64,000 nt of DNA from a virus (Duplodnaviria; Caudoviricetes): positions 160,001 to 224,000 of the IMG/VR virus record IMGVR_UViG_3300046522_000316; one strand, given 5' to 3'. The notes under the pieces are model-generated. The model worked only from the letters and a program-made list of their open reading frames with translations, searched no databases and had not been told where the DNA came from. This document shows positions 50,825 through 63,578 of the stretch, one piece after another (the stretch's first letter is position 1; each line of letters starts with the position of its first letter). Both the position numbers and the translations under genes were made by a program.

Positions 50825-50839
50825 ATATTTACAGTTTTT
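50825..50839 (-). promoter_or_regulatory. Candidate phage promoter AAAAACTGTAAATAT
   Basis: Exact 15-mer also at 52702 and 63555; intergenic. Confidence 0.65.
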
Positions 50840-52119: not shown

Positions 52120-52638
52120 TTACGCGGCTTTCTTCAATTTTGCAGGCTTCAATTTCTTGATCGCCTCTTTGTCTTTCTTCGGCAGCTTCTTGATTTCATC
52201 AAGGAACTTGTGGTGTTCCCGGCTCAGCTTATCGCGGGCTTCTGGAATGGTGAACCACTTGCGTTTCCGCATGTGCTTTTCCTGCCAGTCGTCCAGCTGC
52301 GTGTGAAACTCCATCGCGTACATCACGACGTTTTGTTTCATGCCGTCTTTTTCGTATTGGAACTTGCCGATCTTTTTGGTAACGGTGCCAGAAACTCCCG
52401 CCTCTTCCCAACATTCTTTCGCCGCGTTTTCACGGGCGTCCAAATGCTTTTCCTGACCGCCTTTGGTAAAGCCCCACCAAGCGCCTTTCTTCAATTTCTT
52501 GACCAGACAAACTTGGCGGATACCGTCCTTGTCCCGGTAAGGAATGCAGCCCGATTGTTCACGGACTTTCATTTTCTTTTTCTTTTCCGGTTTTTTGGAT
52601 TTGGCTACTGCGATTTGGAGTTCAACCTGCATTTTCAT
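52120..52638 (-). CDS. Nudix hydrolase (DIPP/Ap6A/Ap4A-hydrolase-like) with Lys-rich termini
   Basis: SGCIPYR...WGFTKGGQE...AAKECWEEAGV Nudix box; W.E...RKRKWFT..EA. Confidence 0.88.
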   Translation of the reverse strand: MKMQVELQIAVAKSKKPEKKKKMKVREQSGCIPYRDKDGIRQVCLVKKLKKGAWWGFTKGGQEKHLDARENAAKECWEEAGVSGTVTKKIGKFQYEKDGMKQNVVMYAMEFHTQLDDWQEKHMRKRKWFTIPEARDKLSREHHKFLDEIKKLPKKDKEAIKKLKPAKLKKAA

Positions 52639-52701: not shown

Positions 52702-52716
52702 ATATTTACAGTTTTT
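52702..52716 (-). promoter_or_regulatory. Candidate phage promoter AAAAACTGTAAATAT, overlapping the upstream stop codon
   Basis: Exact 15-mer; about 65 nt upstream of the Nudix ATG. Confidence 0.55.
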
Positions 52717-53867: not shown

Positions 53868-54181
53868 TGTTCTGGATTCCTTGCCACGATGCTGATCGTT
53901 TCGCGATTGAGGTGTACCAGACTTTTTTCCAGTACGCCGATTTCGGTGTTCAGTAGGGCCACGCGTTGTTTGGTTTTTTCGACTTTGTTTTTCACGAAAT
54001 CAATCAACCACAACTGCGCTTCACGTTCGGTGGCAAACGACACCATAGGCTTAGACGCAGTGGCCCAACTTGCCCACGCGCCCTGCATGTAATATTGCGG
54101 GATATAAAGCTCGTTGAGTTTGATACCCGGCGCCGGTACGCGACAGAAAACGCGAAACGGAATTTGGTCAGGGCTATTCAT
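53864..54181 (-). CDS. Hypothetical protein with a C-terminal coiled coil
   Basis: ATGA overlaps. Confidence 0.65.
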   Translation of the reverse strand: MNSPDQIPFRVFCRVPAPGIKLNELYIPQYYMQGAWASWATASKPMVSFATEREAQLWLIDFVKNKVEKTKQRVALLNTEIGVLEKSLVHLNRETISIVARNPEQ

Positions 54182-54393
54182 GGTTTCAAATCCTTGGCCG
54201 CTTCTTTGTAGGACGCCACCGCGCCGTCACGAATGTGCGAAGCCAGAATGTAGAAACCGCATACAACACGTGCCACAAAATCCAACACACGGGATTCACT
54301 TTCCCACGACTGGTCTTCACGCTTATGGTTCACGGCAAACATGACGCCATAAACCAAGAAAACCAGAACTACCAACAGCACTAAATATTTCAT
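54178..54393 (-). CDS. Small membrane protein (71 aa)
   Basis: MKYLVLLVVLVFLVYGVMFAV TM; RBS GGAG. Confidence 0.65.
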   Translation of the reverse strand: MKYLVLLVVLVFLVYGVMFAVNHKREDQSWESESRVLDFVARVVCGFYILASHIRDGAVASYKEAAKDLKP

Positions 54394-54407
54394 TGTCCAT
54401 TGCTCCA

Positions 54408-54437
54408 AAGGTGCCCACCCGAAGGCAGGCCCCTTTT
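54408..54437 (-). terminator. C(UUCG)G tetraloop hairpin (weak terminator or mRNA stabiliser) closing the ligase operon
   Basis: Minus strand AAAGGGGCCTGCC-TTCG-GGTGGGCACCTTT, paired with G-U wobbles and one mismatch. Confidence 0.55.
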
Positions 54438-54442
54438 TTCAG

Positions 54443-54697
54443 TTATTGTTCGCCTTTCTCGGCACGGGCTGCATCACGCTTGCGTTTATCCCGTTCGTTG
54501 AGTGCGTTGGCTGCTTGGTGCATGGAATCTTCTATAAATTCCACTACGATCATGATCGCCGCAAACACACCGACCACAAAGTAGAAAATCGGATTCCACC
54601 ATTTGCGATCATCGCCCGTCTGCTCCTTGGATAGGTCGTAGCTAAACCACGACGCGTAACCGATCCACACCAGCAAAATCAGATAGATGAAAAACAT
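54443..54697 (-). CDS. Two-TM membrane protein (84 aa)
   Basis: TAATG coupling to the ligase; MFFIYLILLVWIGYASWF and WNPIFYFVVGVFAAIMIVV. Confidence 0.7.
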   Translation of the reverse strand: MFFIYLILLVWIGYASWFSYDLSKEQTGDDRKWWNPIFYFVVGVFAAIMIVVEFIEDSMHQAANALNERDKRKRDAARAEKGEQ

Positions 54698-56067
54698 TAT
54701 TCGTCTTCCCCTTCGCCGTAATATTCCGGGTTGTCGTTGATCAACACGTGCGGGATAAATCGCTCGTTCTTCCACGACAACGTTGGCGATTCGAATTCAC
54801 GAATGCACATCGTGGCCGCTGTCGATTCACGCATGGAATTGTAATCGGAAGCAACGTCGGGAACCATGAACATTCCGATGATGAAATTGTTCCGGCCTTC
54901 GACTTTGTGCGGTGCGTGGTACGCCTGATAAACGCAGTCGTCGCCTTTGTACGGGCCATCGGTGACGTGAGTTGTTGTACCCTGCGCGTCAAAGATTTCG
55001 ACGTTGCTGCTCATGCGACCAACACGTGGTTTTTTCACGTAAGAAACTTTATCGGTTTCGAATTTACGCTCATGCACGTAGGTTGGAATCACTGGCAAAT
55101 CGCCGTAACGCTCTGCGAACGCTGCGTCGTTTTCCAGCAGACGCCAGATGTAGGCCCAAATACCTTTGTTGCTGGTAAACCAACGCCACGCCGGTTCGAG
55201 CATGGTGGTATAGGACGCCCAGTTCTGCCATTCCTTGTACGCCTGCGGGAATGCCTCGACCATTTCTTCCCACGGCACCAACGCGAAAATAACCGTCAGC
55301 GGATTTTCACCGATGTGGAACGGGTTGGTTTTGTTGTTGAAGTCGTAGTCGATTTCCGTAACGTCTGCGAAAAGGCACACGTTGTTTTCGCCAAGAATTT
55401 GCGCGATAACTTCGGAGGTCGCAGTGTCCTCGAACGAATTGCTTTCGTGAATCACGGCAGCGTTGCCCGGAATCTCGCCCATGTCGCCAATCATGGTTTG
55501 CAGCAGCGGGTAAAAGCTATTCAGCTGCAATTCGTTGTCGCCGGTTACGGTTTCGCAAACCTGATTCTGGAACGAAACAGATTCGAAAAGCATGGTCGGC
55601 GTGTCGCCGTTGAATTCGTAGATCCCGGTCACTTCCTCGGTCACAGGATCAAACGCGGCGTCAAAGCGACCGTAGATCGCCTGACGGGCAGACCCATGGT
55701 CACGATAGGAGAACTTCGCGTAGTCGATGAAATACGGATGTTTGCGGAGGAAATCACAGCCCATAAAATACATGAGCGTTTCATTCGATTCGTTGAAGAG
55801 TTTCCCGACCGCCTCAACCAGCATTGCGTATGCGCGTTCGAAAGTGGTTTCGATTTTCGCGCAGGAACTCAGATGCAGATTGTAAACCGGCATGTGGGAA
55901 CTGTGTTCGAGGGGGAACGCAAAATATTCTTTTACGTCCGAGTAGAATTCCGCATCTGCTTCGGATTCCGGTTTCGGCATTTCGCGGTAGAAGGCTTGAG
56001 TCCACGGCAATTCCTCGACCATCAATTTGTTCAGGTCGAAGCCGATATTGTGATACGTGCAATGCAT
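54697..56067 (-). CDS. Glutathionylspermidine-synthase-like ATP-grasp ligase (YgiC/YjfC family)
   Basis: YGRFD, YEFNGDTPT.L.ES, F.LVPWEEM, EPAW.WF.SNKG, YVKKP.VGR.SSNVEI, YQ.Y. Confidence 0.9.
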   Translation of the reverse strand: MHCTYHNIGFDLNKLMVEELPWTQAFYREMPKPESEADAEFYSDVKEYFAFPLEHSSHMPVYNLHLSSCAKIETTFERAYAMLVEAVGKLFNESNETLMYFMGCDFLRKHPYFIDYAKFSYRDHGSARQAIYGRFDAAFDPVTEEVTGIYEFNGDTPTMLFESVSFQNQVCETVTGDNELQLNSFYPLLQTMIGDMGEIPGNAAVIHESNSFEDTATSEVIAQILGENNVCLFADVTEIDYDFNNKTNPFHIGENPLTVIFALVPWEEMVEAFPQAYKEWQNWASYTTMLEPAWRWFTSNKGIWAYIWRLLENDAAFAERYGDLPVIPTYVHERKFETDKVSYVKKPRVGRMSSNVEIFDAQGTTTHVTDGPYKGDDCVYQAYHAPHKVEGRNNFIIGMFMVPDVASDYNSMRESTAATMCIREFESPTLSWKNERFIPHVLINDNPEYYGEGEDE

Positions 56068-56097
56068 GAATAACTTCCTTGGAAAAATGCGAAAAGA

Positions 56098-56760
56098 TTA
56101 CGAGCCAGAACCGTGGGATGCTGCACGGGCACCGCCACCACCGGACATTACGCCAGACGCACGCGATGCAGCAGCCGCTTTATACGTGGCCGGGGCACTC
56201 GACGGGCTTGCACGCCATTGCGAAACGCGGTTGTTCATGTTCGAACGATACGACGGGCTAGACGTGACGGCAGCGCGGTTATTATTCATCAGCATCGACG
56301 TGTAGGCCGACGATCCGCTGTTACGGCATTTACGGCGATCTTGTTCGTTGCATTGCGTAGATTGCAACGGCTGGTGTTGCTGCTGATATTGCTGCATGCC
56401 GCCGTTCTGGTTCATCATTTTCGCCAACGCGTAACCACCGATGGCAGCAGCGCCAGCACCGGCCACCAACGGCCACACGGAATCGCTGCTTTGGCCGTTC
56501 GCTTCTTCACGCACAATATGCAATTGTTTTTCGCCGTTTGCACCGACGCCGTAATACGCATCTTTTACAGACGGATCTTTCGTTTGCAATTCCTTCACGG
56601 TTGCTTGCAAATCTTTTTCGTCTTCTGCGAGTTGTGCGCGGGTTGCCTGACCAGCCTCTTCGTCAACGTAGGCCTGTTCTTCGGCGTAGTCCGGGCTATC
56701 GTCACAGCCAGCGAGAATTACCAAACTTGCTGCTGCCAAAGCAATGACTTTTTTGTTCAC
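56098..56760 (-). CDS. YgiB/DUF1190-like lipoprotein
   Basis: GTG start; lipobox LAGC; QSSDSVWPLVAG...GGYALAKMM resembles YgiB [20 protein letters not shown] (recalled); Gly/Ser/Ala-rich tail. Confidence 0.7.
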   Translation of the reverse strand: MNKKVIALAAASLVILAGCDDSPDYAEEQAYVDEEAGQATRAQLAEDEKDLQATVKELQTKDPSVKDAYYGVGANGEKQLHIVREEANGQSSDSVWPLVAGAGAAAIGGYALAKMMNQNGGMQQYQQQHQPLQSTQCNEQDRRKCRNSGSSAYTSMLMNNNRAAVTSSPSYRSNMNNRVSQWRASPSSAPATYKAAAASRASGVMSGGGGARAASHGSGS

Positions 56761-56817
56761 TTCATTTGTTTCCTTAATGGGGGTGATGTGGGCCAGTCGT
56801 AACAACCTGACCCCTGA

Positions 56818-56825
56818 TATTTACA
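56818..56825 (-). promoter_or_regulatory. Candidate promoter core TGTAAATA
   Basis: 58 nt upstream of the lipoprotein GTG, the same spacing as at thyA and 50769. Confidence 0.5.
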
Positions 56826-63386: not shown

Positions 63387-63578
63387 TTACGGTTCCTGCT
63401 GCCAATCGGCTTCGATCAGCTGCACTTTGAAGTTGCGCGCCAGTATTCGGCTTTCCGCCAAGGTGAATTGTCGGGCGCGTAGTCTGCTTTTGCATGTGTA
63501 AACCTTGTCTTCGGTAATCTTGAAAATGTAGGAGCCTTCTGAAAGCCTCGCTACATATTTACAGTTTTTGTTGTCCAT
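63387..63578 (-). CDS. Small hypothetical protein (63 aa)
   Basis: RBS AAGGTG; contains the 15-mer motif at 63555-63569 in its first codons. Confidence 0.45.
   Translation of the reverse strand: MDNKNCKYVARLSEGSYIFKITEDKVYTCKSRLRARQFTLAESRILARNFKVQLIEADWQQEP

What the first reader, a model, noticed from the sequence alone, without database searches (positions are those of the whole stretch)
54178..56825. Phage-encoded YgiB-YgiC-like module: lipoprotein, glutathionylspermidine-synthase-like ligase and small membrane proteins under a phage promoter
Seen in sequence: a discrete unit of promoter motif (56818), lipoprotein (LAGC lipobox, QSSDSVWPLVAG..GGY..AKMM, Gly/Ser/Ala tail), ATP-grasp ligase with intact GRFD, E-x-N-x-DTP, NKG and KKP..GR motifs, a translationally coupled 2-TM protein and a UUCG hairpin; a further TM protein follows. 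Established: bacteria keep ygiB-ygiC (next to tolC) and yjfM-yjfC (in a PspA-paralog cluster) as conserved pairs. These ligases are Gsp-synthetase homologs whose physiological substrate is unknown. Inference: the phage has captured the whole envelope-associated pair, with a remodelled lipoprotein lacking the Cys-containing YgiB N-domain. It may ligate an amine or peptide to the lipoprotein tail, or consume polyamines or thiols, to stabilise the infected envelope, exclude superinfection or counter defence. A phage context offers a tractable route to the unknown function of this family.
Basis: partly seen in the sequence, partly recalled or inferred. Interest (0 to 1): 0.8.

Follow-up and report, generated by a model that had tools for sequence, protein, structure and literature searches.

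The report
Phage lipoprotein plus peptide-polyamine ligase pair
A giant Pseudomonas-type phage carries its own copy of a bacterial gene pair, a membrane lipoprotein and an enzyme that joins polyamines to peptide ends, and comparison across phages suggests the lipoprotein's own tail end is the enzyme's unknown target.

Summary
On the minus strand lie a lipoprotein (56760-56098), a YgiC/YjfC-like ATP-grasp ligase (56067-54697), a translationally coupled 2-TM protein, a UUCG hairpin and a further TM protein. A Lu11-type phage promoter motif precedes them. The window is a Lu11/HRDY3-like jumbo phage.

The ligase is a clear GSP_synth member. Its nearest solved structures are YgiC and YjfC, and all shared motif residues are intact.

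The lipoprotein fails the Pfam DUF1190 test. It belongs to phrog_13808 and has a different, Cys-free N-domain. Its architecture matches DUF1190, and bacterial members of its family occupy the YjfM slot of yjfI-J-K-L-M-C-like operons, next to a phage-type long ligase.

The pair is adjacent in at least six lineages. The tail carries a motif registered to the C-terminus: Gly at -2 in 93 of 96, and G/S/A at -1. Variants ending in RRR lack the ligase in three phage lineages, including a phiPMW-syntenic phage and three near-complete or complete genomes, and at one short bacterial-like contig.

My best reading, at about 40%, is that the ligase amidates the tail's C-terminus with a polyamine. A complex prediction gave only weak support, and membrane topology is unresolved.

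The scan noted this stretch once before, in an overlapping window (e1-5370589).

The parts
56817..56825 (-). Phage promoter-like motif TGTAAATAT, directly after the stop codon of the upstream gene and about 57 nt before the lipoprotein start
   Evidence: 4 exact copies in the window, all on the minus strand, against 0.26 expected. It aligns with the annotated Lu11 middle/late promoter.
56098..56760 (-). Lipoprotein of 220 aa with five parts: signal peptide and lipobox (Cys19, Asp at +2), acidic helix plus 3-strand domain, Gly/Ala-rich hydrophobic segment starting W-P (residues 96-116), basic Ser/Gly/Arg-rich tail, and a C-terminal R-x3-H-G-S-G-S end
   Evidence: phrog_13808 E 6e-41. No Pfam DUF1190 hit. 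Family profile and architecture statistics. AF2 model with pLDDT 78.
54697..56067 (-). ATP-grasp acid-amine ligase of the GSP_synth / YgiC-YjfC kind, long phage-type form (456 aa), with no amidase domain and no signal peptide
   Evidence: PF03738 153.8 bits. Best PDB hits YgiC 7uk8 at 1.3e-14 and YjfC 7uk6 at 3e-12. 37 columns are invariant across phage ligases, YgiC and YjfC, including R134, D136, E151, N153, D155-T-P, K301, K346-P, R351, N355 and R423-E.
54443..54697 (-). 84-aa protein with two predicted TM helices, translationally coupled to the ligase (TAATG overlap)
   Evidence: 32% identical to the HRDY3 counterpart, E 4e-16. An overlapping small TM ORF follows the ligase only in Lu11-like loci.
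54407..54435 (-). GC-rich RNA hairpin with a UUCG loop and no U-tract. It may be a transcript-stabilising or attenuating element.
   Evidence: MFE -18.4 kcal/mol, z -2.55, 3 of 200 shuffles fold as well. The consensus terminator scan did not call it.
54178..54393 (-). 71-aa small membrane protein, not conserved in HRDY3

Best explanation
This is the phage version of the bacterial lipoprotein plus peptide-polyamine ligase pair (YgiB-YgiC, YjfM-YjfC). It was taken from a variant of the yjf-type membrane-stress operon and is expressed from a phage promoter.

Shown here:
- The ligase is an intact cytoplasmic ATP-grasp enzyme of the YgiC/YjfC kind.
- The lipoprotein belongs to a family that replaces DUF1190 in the same operon slot and always sits directly upstream of the ligase.

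Inferred mechanism:
- The lipoprotein is held in the inner membrane by its lipid anchor (Asp at +2) and its Gly-rich hydrophobic segment. Its acidic domain faces the periplasm and its basic tail faces the cytoplasm.
- The ligase phosphorylates the free C-terminal carboxylate of the tail (penultimate Gly, tiny last residue). This is what glutathionylspermidine synthetase does to the Gly of glutathione.
- The ligase then couples the activated end to spermidine or putrescine. The result is a polycationic tail end at the inner face of the membrane.
- Lineages that lost the ligase hard-code a similar charge as a C-terminal RRR.

The likely benefit to the phage is conditioning of the inner membrane during infection, through membrane-stress tolerance or ion homeostasis, or exclusion of other phages. 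That last step is speculative.
For: Identity of the pair: for the ligase; for the lipoprotein family.

Pair adjacency in every locus where the lipoprotein ends in G, S, A, T or M and where flank is available (29 loci):
- Lu11-like phages, phiPMW, PhiW-14 and Vibrio phage VPMCC14.
- Pseudomonas syringae and Neptuniibacter contigs.
- Bacterial yjf-like operons.

Co-variation of the two partners: the long ligase goes with this lipoprotein type and the short YgiC/YjfC with DUF1190.

Motif registered to the C-terminus in 96 non-RR representatives:
- Gly at -2 in 93.
- G, S or A at -1 in all 96.
- Tyr at -5 in 49.
- Arg at -9 in 56.
- YgiB orthologues end in SMGG in 116 of 120, and YjfM ends in HWGG.

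RRR/KRR-ending variants:
- No ligase lies within 5 kb in three phage lineages. A short (3.7 kb) bacterial-like contig with an RRR-ending variant also shows no adjacent ligase.
- One of these lineages is syntenic with phiPMW (PRPP synthetase, NAPRTase, lipoprotein ... DNA ligase).
- Three near-complete or complete (98-100% by CheckV) RRR-type phage genomes have no PF03738 at all.

Charge split fits an N-out, C-in topology: the N-part carries about -4 to -21 net charge and the tail about +4 to +30 in nearly all of the 114 representatives.

Complex prediction of ligase with tail 118-220, ATP and Mg:
- ipSAE 0.56 against a best control of 0.22, rated weak support.
- That mark was reached by 58 of 80 solved complexes and 2 of 110 mismatched pairs. 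At 0.60 or under it was reached by only 7 of those 80 and by both mismatches.
- The runs agree in at least 24% of contacts, and partner pLDDT is at least 32.

Peptide-spermidine ligase activity of YgiC and YjfC is reported in PMC11762307, citing Pederick et al. 2023.
Against: - The hydrophobic segment is weak for a TM helix. Mean Kyte-Doolittle score is 1.46 over 19 residues, it is rich in Gly and Ala, and it contains Pro. AF2 does not model it as one continuous helix. In YgiB and YjfM the matching segment contains an Arg.
- If the tail is periplasmic, a cytoplasmic ATP enzyme cannot reach it after export.
- YgiB is described as a predicted outer-membrane lipoprotein (PMC11762307).
- The complex prediction is only weak and gives no interface.
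- In the Lu11-like clade the last residues vary (GS, SS, GG, GM), although -2 Gly and -9 Arg are kept.
- The RRR versus ligase correlation rests on about four independent losses, and relatives share ancestry.
- The representatives were gathered with a profile that contains the tail motif, which inflates its apparent conservation.
- No mass-spectrometric or enzymatic data exist for any member.
Confidence: 0.4

Rival explanations
1. The ligase makes a soluble peptide-polyamine or other acid-amine conjugate, analogous to glutathionylspermidine. The lipoprotein is a partner, acting as membrane scaffold, sensor or regulator, or as a binder of the exported product. It is not the substrate. The phage uses the pair to alter polyamine or thiol pools, or envelope stress signalling.
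For: YgiC and YjfC act on free peptides in vitro, and their physiological substrate is unknown (PMC11762307). The hydrophobic segment is weak and AF2 does not model it as a TM helix, so the tail may not be cytoplasmic. The complex prediction is only weak. The E. coli pair is co-transcribed with the exporter TolC (PMC11762307).
Against: It does not explain why a motif is registered to the extreme C-terminus with near-invariant Gly at -2. It does not explain why RRR-ending variants are the ones without a ligase. It does not explain why ligase subtype co-varies with lipoprotein type.
Confidence: 0.35
2. The ligase serves polyamine-linked DNA hypermodification or polyamine supply for DNA packaging, as suspected for PhiW-14 (putrescinylthymine) and for restriction-resistant Lu11 DNA. 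The lipoprotein is an unrelated neighbour.
For: PhiW-14 carries a homologue. PMC5977210 notes it as the only PhiW-14 protein related to polyamine metabolism, and says that Lu11 DNA resists many restriction enzymes. Homologues occur in PhiW-14, phiPMW and Lu11.
Against: The ligase is always paired with the lipoprotein, in PhiW-14 as well. The same pair sits in bacterial membrane-stress operons with DUF350, DUF2491 and a K+ channel. Its closest solved relatives are peptide-spermidine ligases, not nucleotide enzymes. No link to DNA-modification genes was seen in the neighbourhoods examined.
Confidence: 0.07
3. The lipoprotein acts on its own as a superinfection-exclusion or envelope-remodelling factor, like other phage lipoproteins. 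The ligase is a passenger kept by linkage, with no functional coupling to it.
For: Phage-encoded lipoproteins are often exclusion factors (established knowledge: T5 Llp, Cor). RRR-type lipoproteins persist in phages without any ligase, so the lipoprotein has a ligase-independent role.
Against: Pair adjacency, often with overlapping or abutting ORFs, is kept across lineages whose lipoproteins share only about 20-40% identity. All catalytic motif residues of the ligase are conserved, which argues for selection on activity.
Confidence: 0.1

Closest known systems
E. coli YjfM-YjfC within the yjfIJKLMC cluster (DUF2170, PspA paralogue, DUF2491, DUF350, DUF1190, ligase)
   Same: The gene order is lipoprotein then ATP-grasp ligase. 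Bacterial members of the phage lipoprotein family occupy exactly the YjfM slot after DUF350 and before a GSP_synth gene. The lipoprotein plan is the same: lipobox, acidic N-part, W-P hydrophobic segment, and a basic tail ending G-G.
   Different: The N-domain is a Cys-free helix plus 3-strand unit, not the 4-Cys DUF1190 domain. The Pfam DUF1190 model does not match. The ligase is about 60-70 residues longer, with characteristic insertions, and is only 25% identical. The phage carries only the pair, without PspA, DUF350 or DUF2491.
E. coli YgiB-YgiC (tolC-ygiBC operon)
   Same: YgiC is the best solved-structure match of the ligase (7uk8, E 1.3e-14). YgiB and the phage lipoprotein align weakly over the signal peptide and the SS-x-S-x-W-x-PL-x-AG segment (pairwise E 4e-6). 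Both end in small residues.
   Different: There is no TolC link in phages. Once the signal peptide is removed, the similarity to YgiB is no better than to shuffled sequences. The phage protein has Asp at +2 after the lipid-modified Cys, where YgiB has Glu.
Glutathionylspermidine synthetase/amidase (GspSA) and trypanothione synthetase
   Same: They share the Pfam family and the ATP-grasp chemistry, in which a C-terminal Gly carboxylate is activated and joined to a polyamine amine. Trypanothione synthetase is a PDB hit at 1.1e-7.
   Different: There is no amidase (CHAP) domain. The bifunctional NCBIfam model scores 31.7 bits against a cut-off of 882. The annotation 'glutathionylspermidine synthase' in phage records is probably wrong about the substrate.
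Lu11 gp278-gp277, HRDY3 XDJ14995-XDJ14996, phiPMW gp104-gp102, PhiW-14 gp90-gp92 and VPMCC14 094-095
   Same: These are direct homologues of both genes in the same order. The ligase has been noted in the literature as an unusual phage gene (PMC5587285, PMC5977210).
   Different: Those records annotate the lipoprotein as hypothetical, and nobody linked it to the ligase or to DUF1190. The window phage is a new relative, with 65% amino-acid identity to the Lu11 ligase.
C-terminal Gly-Gly conjugation to spermidine by ubiquitin-like proteins
   Same: A protein C-terminal Gly carboxylate is joined to spermidine as an amide (topic of PMC12270671, which cites the YgiC/YjfC work).
   Different: That chemistry runs through E1-type adenylation and thioesters in eukaryotes. 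Here it would be a one-step ATP-grasp acyl-phosphate mechanism, and it has not been demonstrated.

Membership tests
GSP_synth (PF03738), YgiC/YjfC-type stand-alone acid-amine ligases | Match to the family model above the curated cut-off | tested here: met
   153.8 bits against a cut-off of 29.3, covering residues 61-416.
GSP_synth (PF03738), YgiC/YjfC-type stand-alone acid-amine ligases | Conserved ATP-grasp and Mg-binding motif residues (R-x-D, E-x-N-x-DTP, SNK, K-P, R, N, R-E) shared with YgiC and YjfC | tested here: met
   37 columns are invariant across 7 phage-type ligases plus YgiC and YjfC, and they include all of these residues. Assigning each residue to ATP, Mg or substrate binding rests on recalled GspS structural work and was not tested here.
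GSP_synth (PF03738), YgiC/YjfC-type stand-alone acid-amine ligases | Stand-alone synthetase without the N-terminal amidase domain of GspSA | tested here: met
   The protein is 456 aa. The bifunctional model NF007801 scores 31.7 bits against a cut-off of 882 and matches only residues 289-400.
GSP_synth (PF03738), YgiC/YjfC-type stand-alone acid-amine ligases | ATP-dependent ligation of a carboxylate to a polyamine | not testable with these tools
   This needs an enzyme assay.
DUF1190 (PF06693; YgiB, YjfM) | Match to the Pfam model (cut-off 22 bits) | tested here: not met
   The window protein has no hit at E up to 10. Five related phage genomes have no hit in any of six frames. 17 of 114 family representatives hit weakly (best E 1.5e-5), more often than they hit any other family.
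DUF1190 (PF06693; YgiB, YjfM) | Cys-rich (4 Cys) periplasmic N-domain | tested here: not met
   The N-part has no Cys. It is modelled as a long helix plus a three-stranded sheet. YgiB and YjfM keep 4 invariant Cys.
DUF1190 (PF06693; YgiB, YjfM) | Profile-level sequence homology of the mature protein | tested here: inconclusive
   hhalign aligns only the signal peptide and lipobox. My HMM of the mature part does not score YgiB orthologues above shuffled controls. The DUF1190 alignment I had was shallow.
DUF1190 (PF06693; YgiB, YjfM) | Architecture (lipobox, acidic N-part, W-P hydrophobic segment, basic tail ending G-G) and position directly upstream of a YgiC-type ligase | tested here: met
phrog_13808 (phage proteins of unknown function) | Match to the family profile over its full length | tested here: met
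   E 6.2e-41, covering profile positions 4-203 of 206.
Lu11-type middle/late promoter | Consensus AAAAACTGTAAATATA in an intergenic position upstream of a gene | tested here: inconclusive
   The core TGTAAATAT is present and enriched, but the upstream AAAAAC part is degenerate at this copy. Promoter activity itself is only an annotation in the Lu11 record.

The most novel reading that the evidence does not exclude
The membrane lipoproteins encoded next to YgiC/YjfC-type ligases (DUF1190 in enterobacteria, the phrog_13808 family in phages and other bacteria) are the unknown physiological substrates of these enzymes. Their Gly-Gly-type C-terminus would be amidated with spermidine or putrescine. 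That would be a previously undescribed ribosomal-protein C-terminal polyamination in bacteria and phages, with RRR-ending variants as genetically encoded mimics.
Probability: 0.35. Interest if true: 0.85.

Novelty: new variant of a known kind. Interest (0 to 1): 0.66.

Why it matters
YgiC and YjfC are conserved bacterial enzymes. They have solved structures and a demonstrated in vitro peptide-spermidine ligase activity, but their physiological substrate is still unknown (PMC11762307).

The comparison started from this phage gives a concrete candidate that can be tested cheaply: the C-terminus of the neighbouring lipoprotein. It also supplies a natural control set, the RRR-ending and ligase-less variants, and a minimal two-gene system free of the other operon members.

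If the hypothesis is confirmed, three things follow:
- It would define a new post-translational modification.
- It would explain the ygiBC and yjfMC pairs.
- It would show what jumbo phages and phiPMW-, PhiW-14- and VPMCC14-like phages gain from this module.

If it is refuted, the finding remains a well-documented case of a phage-borne envelope and polyamine module. It would also correct the 'glutathionylspermidine synthase' annotation in phage records.

Tried and rejected
- DUF1190 membership by HMM was rejected. Direct Pfam scans and a six-frame search of five phage genomes found nothing.
- Profile-profile comparison with a YgiB/YjfM alignment matched only the signal peptide.
- A home-made HMM of the mature part scored YgiB no better than shuffles. 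The earlier full-length run ranked YgiB above all decoys only because of the lipobox.
- I guessed which representatives carry the weak DUF1190 hits and guessed wrong, wasting a scan.
- P0256 is not similar to YjfM by BLASTP. Its link to YjfM is positional, not by sequence.
- The AFDB fold search of the lipoprotein model found only family members at high rmsd and no known fold.
- Complex prediction gave 'weak support' only: ipSAE 0.56 against a best control of 0.22, partner pLDDT at least 32, contact agreement at least 24%, and no interface reported. It cannot settle binding.
- The Lu11 gene annotated as a Cor exclusion protein has no counterpart among the genes after the ligase here.
- The second small TM protein is not conserved in HRDY3.
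- The downstream 2-TM protein shows no DUF350 relationship.
- The alignment of the whole family (A2) was too diverse for a locus scan, and the scan with P0192 found nothing.
- The Pederick et al. 2023 paper is not held in the library, so its peptide specificities could not be compared with the tail motif.
- No whole genome is held for the window.


Full report
**What is in the sequence**

The region 54178-56825 carries a run of minus-strand genes.
- A lipoprotein gene starts with GTG at 56760 behind an AAGGAA ribosome-binding site and ends at 56098. It encodes 220 aa with lipobox L-A-G-C and Asp at +2 after the Cys.
- Thirty bases downstream is a 456-aa ORF (56067-54697).
- An 84-aa ORF with two hydrophobic helices starts inside the stop codon of that ORF (TAATG).
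- A GC-rich hairpin with a UUCG loop follows (54435-54407, -18.4 kcal/mol, z -2.55, no U-tract).
- A 71-aa membrane protein comes next (54393-54178).
- The next gene overlaps it by ATGA, so the gene run continues.

The motif TGTAAATAT at 56825-56817 lies directly after the stop codon of the upstream gene. It occurs four times in the window, always on the minus strand and between genes, against 0.26 expected. It aligns with the 16-nt element annotated as a middle/late promoter in phage Lu11. The next copy on this strand is at 52710, before a NUDIX gene. The transcription unit therefore probably runs from 56760 to about 52706 and holds seven genes, not four.

**What the window is**

The DNA matches Pseudomonas phage HRDY3 (314 kb) at 72% nucleotide identity. 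The proteins are about 65% identical to those of HRDY3 and Lu11 (280 kb), with the same local gene order, including the NUDIX gene. It is a new Lu11-like jumbo phage. No whole genome is held for it.

**The ligase**

- Pfam GSP_synth scores 153.8 bits against a cut-off of 29.3, and phrog_6215 gives E 6e-104.
- The best solved structures are E. coli YgiC (7uk8, 1.3e-14) and YjfC (7uk6, 3e-12), ahead of trypanothione synthetase (1.1e-7).
- The bifunctional synthetase/amidase model is far below its cut-off, and no amidase domain is present.
- In an alignment of seven phage-type ligases with YgiC and YjfC, 37 columns are invariant. They include R134, D136, E151, N153, D155-T156-P157, K301, K346-P347, R351, N355 and R423-E424.
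- The enzyme therefore looks active. It has no signal peptide, so it should be cytoplasmic.
- Phage-type ligases form their own long subfamily of about 420-460 aa with specific insertions, and are 25% identical to YgiC.
- YgiC and YjfC do not make glutathionylspermidine. They have reported peptide-spermidine ligase activity, with the physiological substrate still unknown (PMC11762307, citing Sui 2012 and Pederick 2023; RefSeq now names them peptide--spermidine ligases).

**The lipoprotein and the DUF1190 question**

The protein matches phrog_13808 (E 6e-41) but not Pfam DUF1190.
- The window protein has no hit at E up to 10.
- Six-frame searches of five related phage genomes found nothing.
- Profile-profile comparison with YgiB/YjfM aligns only the signal peptide.
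- An HMM of the mature part scores YgiB orthologues no better than shuffled sequences.
- The pairwise BLASTP hit to YgiB (E 4e-6) is largely carried by the signal peptide plus a short W-x-PL-x-AG stretch.
- DUF1190 is nonetheless the Pfam family that representatives of this family hit most often, though weakly: 17 of 114, best 1.5e-5, with the next family at 2.

Membership in DUF1190 therefore cannot be claimed, and remote homology remains open.

Functional equivalence is better supported. A profile of the phage family finds 124 cluster representatives. Across 114 of them the plan is constant:
- a lipobox Cys, usually followed by Asp or Glu;
- an N-part with net charge of about -4 to -21 in nearly all of them;
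- a Gly/Ala-rich hydrophobic segment that often starts W-P;
- a tail with net charge of about +4 to +30 in nearly all of them.

YgiB and YjfM show the same plan by inspection.

Bacterial members of the family (P0234, P0270, P0256) lie in operons ordered DUF2170, a 228-aa gene, a K+ channel, DUF2491, DUF350, lipoprotein, GSP_synth. That is the E. coli yjfI-J-K-L-M-C order, with this family in the YjfM slot. The ligase in that operon is the long type. It is 32% identical to the phage enzyme (E 5e-64) and 24% identical to YjfC.

Two co-varying versions of the pair therefore exist: DUF1190 with the short ligase, and the phrog_13808 type with the long ligase. The phage pair derives from the second.

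**Conservation of the pair**

The lipoprotein gene lies directly upstream of the ligase, often abutting or overlapping it, in the following:
- Lu11, HRDY3 and about 20 IMG/VR jumbo contigs;
- phiPMW-like phages, where a 46-aa ORF lies between the two genes;
- PhiW-14, where a 64-aa TM ORF lies between them;
- Vibrio phage VPMCC14;
- a phage-like region of a Pseudomonas syringae assembly;
- a Neptuniibacter replicon.

The small TM protein coupled to the ligase is found only in the Lu11-like group. In VPMCC14 the downstream gene carries a K+ channel signature, echoing the bacterial operon.

**A clue to the substrate**

Counted from the C-terminus, the 96 representatives that do not end in basic residues show the following:
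- Gly at -2 in 93;
- G (69), S (23) or A (4) at -1;
- Tyr at -5 in 49;
- Arg at -9 in 56.

The window protein keeps this register: R at -9, H at -5, G at -2, S at -1. YgiB orthologues end in SMGG in 116 of 120, and YjfM ends in HWGG. A motif registered to the free end, with a tiny last residue, is what an enzyme acting on a terminal carboxylate needs. Glutathionylspermidine synthetase acts on the Gly carboxylate of glutathione in this way (established knowledge).

Fifteen or sixteen representatives end instead in RR(R), KR or a similar basic end. Every such locus examined lacks a ligase within 5 kb, or within the shorter flank available:
- T4-like contigs (L011, L037-L040);
- a 437-kb jumbo phage (L012/L036);
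- a 3.7-kb bacterial-like contig (L046);
- L047, which shares the phiPMW synteny (PRPP synthetase, NAPRTase, small ORF, lipoprotein ... DNA ligase) but has an RRR end and no ligase.

Three near-complete or complete (98-100% by CheckV) RRR-type phage genomes contain no PF03738 gene anywhere, while a GG-type control does. All 29 loci with small-residue ends and enough flank have the ligase.

An RRR end carries about the same net charge as a spermidine amide. I therefore read the RRR end as a hard-coded substitute, which is an inference.

**Tests of the model and its weak points**

A complex prediction used the ligase, tail residues 118-220, ATP and Mg. It gave ipSAE 0.56 against a best control of 0.22, which the tool rates as weak support. 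That mark was reached by 58 of 80 solved complexes and 2 of 110 mismatched pairs. At 0.60 or under it was reached by only 7 of the 80 and by both mismatches. Contact agreement was at least 24%, partner pLDDT at least 32, and no interface was given.

The main weakness is topology.
- The hydrophobic segment is only moderately hydrophobic (mean Kyte-Doolittle 1.46 over 19 residues).
- AF2 (pLDDT 78, pTM 0.66) does not model it as one continuous helix. It folds the tail into confident helices.
- The model matches no known fold.
- YgiB is described as a predicted outer-membrane lipoprotein (PMC11762307).

If the tail is periplasmic, direct modification by a cytoplasmic ATP enzyme fails. The lipoprotein would then be a partner rather than the substrate.

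**Rivals**

- The ligase may make a soluble conjugate, with the lipoprotein as scaffold or sensor. I give this about 35%.
- A published suggestion links the PhiW-14 and Lu11 enzyme to polyamine-modified or restriction-resistant DNA (PMC5977210). The obligatory pairing with a lipoprotein and the origin in a bacterial membrane-stress operon argue against it. I give it about 7%.
- The lipoprotein may act alone, for instance in exclusion, with the ligase as a passenger. The conserved catalytic residues and the adjacency across lineages with lipoproteins only about 20-40% identical argue against this. I give it about 10%.

**Novelty**

The phage ligase is already annotated, as glutathionylspermidine synthase, and has been remarked on in the literature (PMC5587285, PMC5977210). 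Its link to the neighbouring lipoprotein, to the YjfM slot and to a C-terminal motif was not found in the library searches. The PSP comparative study notes the ATP-grasp and DUF1190 association in bacteria and calls DUF1190 a metal-chelating lipoprotein (PMC11237479).

I rate this a new variant of a known kind. It yields a testable hypothesis for an open question. The scan flagged the same stretch once before in an overlapping window.

Noticed in passing
window 50825-50833, 52702-52710, 63555-63563 (minus strand): There are three further copies of the Lu11-type promoter core, with a fuller AAAAACTGTAAATAT consensus. Each lies in an intergenic position upstream of a minus-strand gene. Together they mark out the transcription units of this gene block.
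   Followed up: partly
window 52120-52638 (minus strand): A NUDIX hydrolase (PF00293 E 5e-10, phrog_10313 E 3e-53) lies a few genes downstream of the pair and has its own promoter motif. A NUDIX gene is also near the pair in Lu11, HRDY3 and the Pseudomonas syringae contig L008.
   Followed up: no
L006:4736-5392 (Vibrio phage VPMCC14 gene 096): The gene directly after the ligase encodes a membrane protein with a K+ channel selectivity-filter-like signature (T-V-G-F-G-D). Bacterial yjf-like operons with this lipoprotein family also carry an Ion_trans_2 channel (L043, L009).
   Followed up: partly
L009:9447-10406 (Neptuniibacter replicon): A second lipoprotein lies downstream of the ligase. It has a Cys-containing acidic N-part, a Gly-rich hydrophobic segment and a tail of about 17 tandem P-T-V-I-K-P-A-x-x-P-V-K repeats, and it ends in YRRK. 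Here a basic-ended paralogue and a small-residue-ended one flank a single ligase.
   Followed up: no
L047:2340-8356 compared with L004 (phiPMW): A phiPMW-syntenic phage contig keeps the PRPP synthetase, NAPRTase, lipoprotein and DNA ligase genes. It has lost the ligase and carries a Macro-domain gene nearby, and its lipoprotein ends in RRR.
   Followed up: partly
L008 (Pseudomonas syringae pv. actinidiae assembly, 938-kb contig, record positions 77-95 kb): The region around the pair looks like phage DNA (thymidine kinase, NUDIX, Bax1-I, RNase H, UDG-like, IS605 transposase). The bacterial hits of the phage-type ligase may therefore be prophage or co-assembled phage DNA.
   Followed up: no
window 56331-56351 (residues 137-145 of the lipoprotein): Two Cys residues in the tail (C-N-E-Q-D-R-R-K-C) are present only in the closest relatives of the window phage. 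Other clades have Tyr or Phe at these positions.
   Followed up: no
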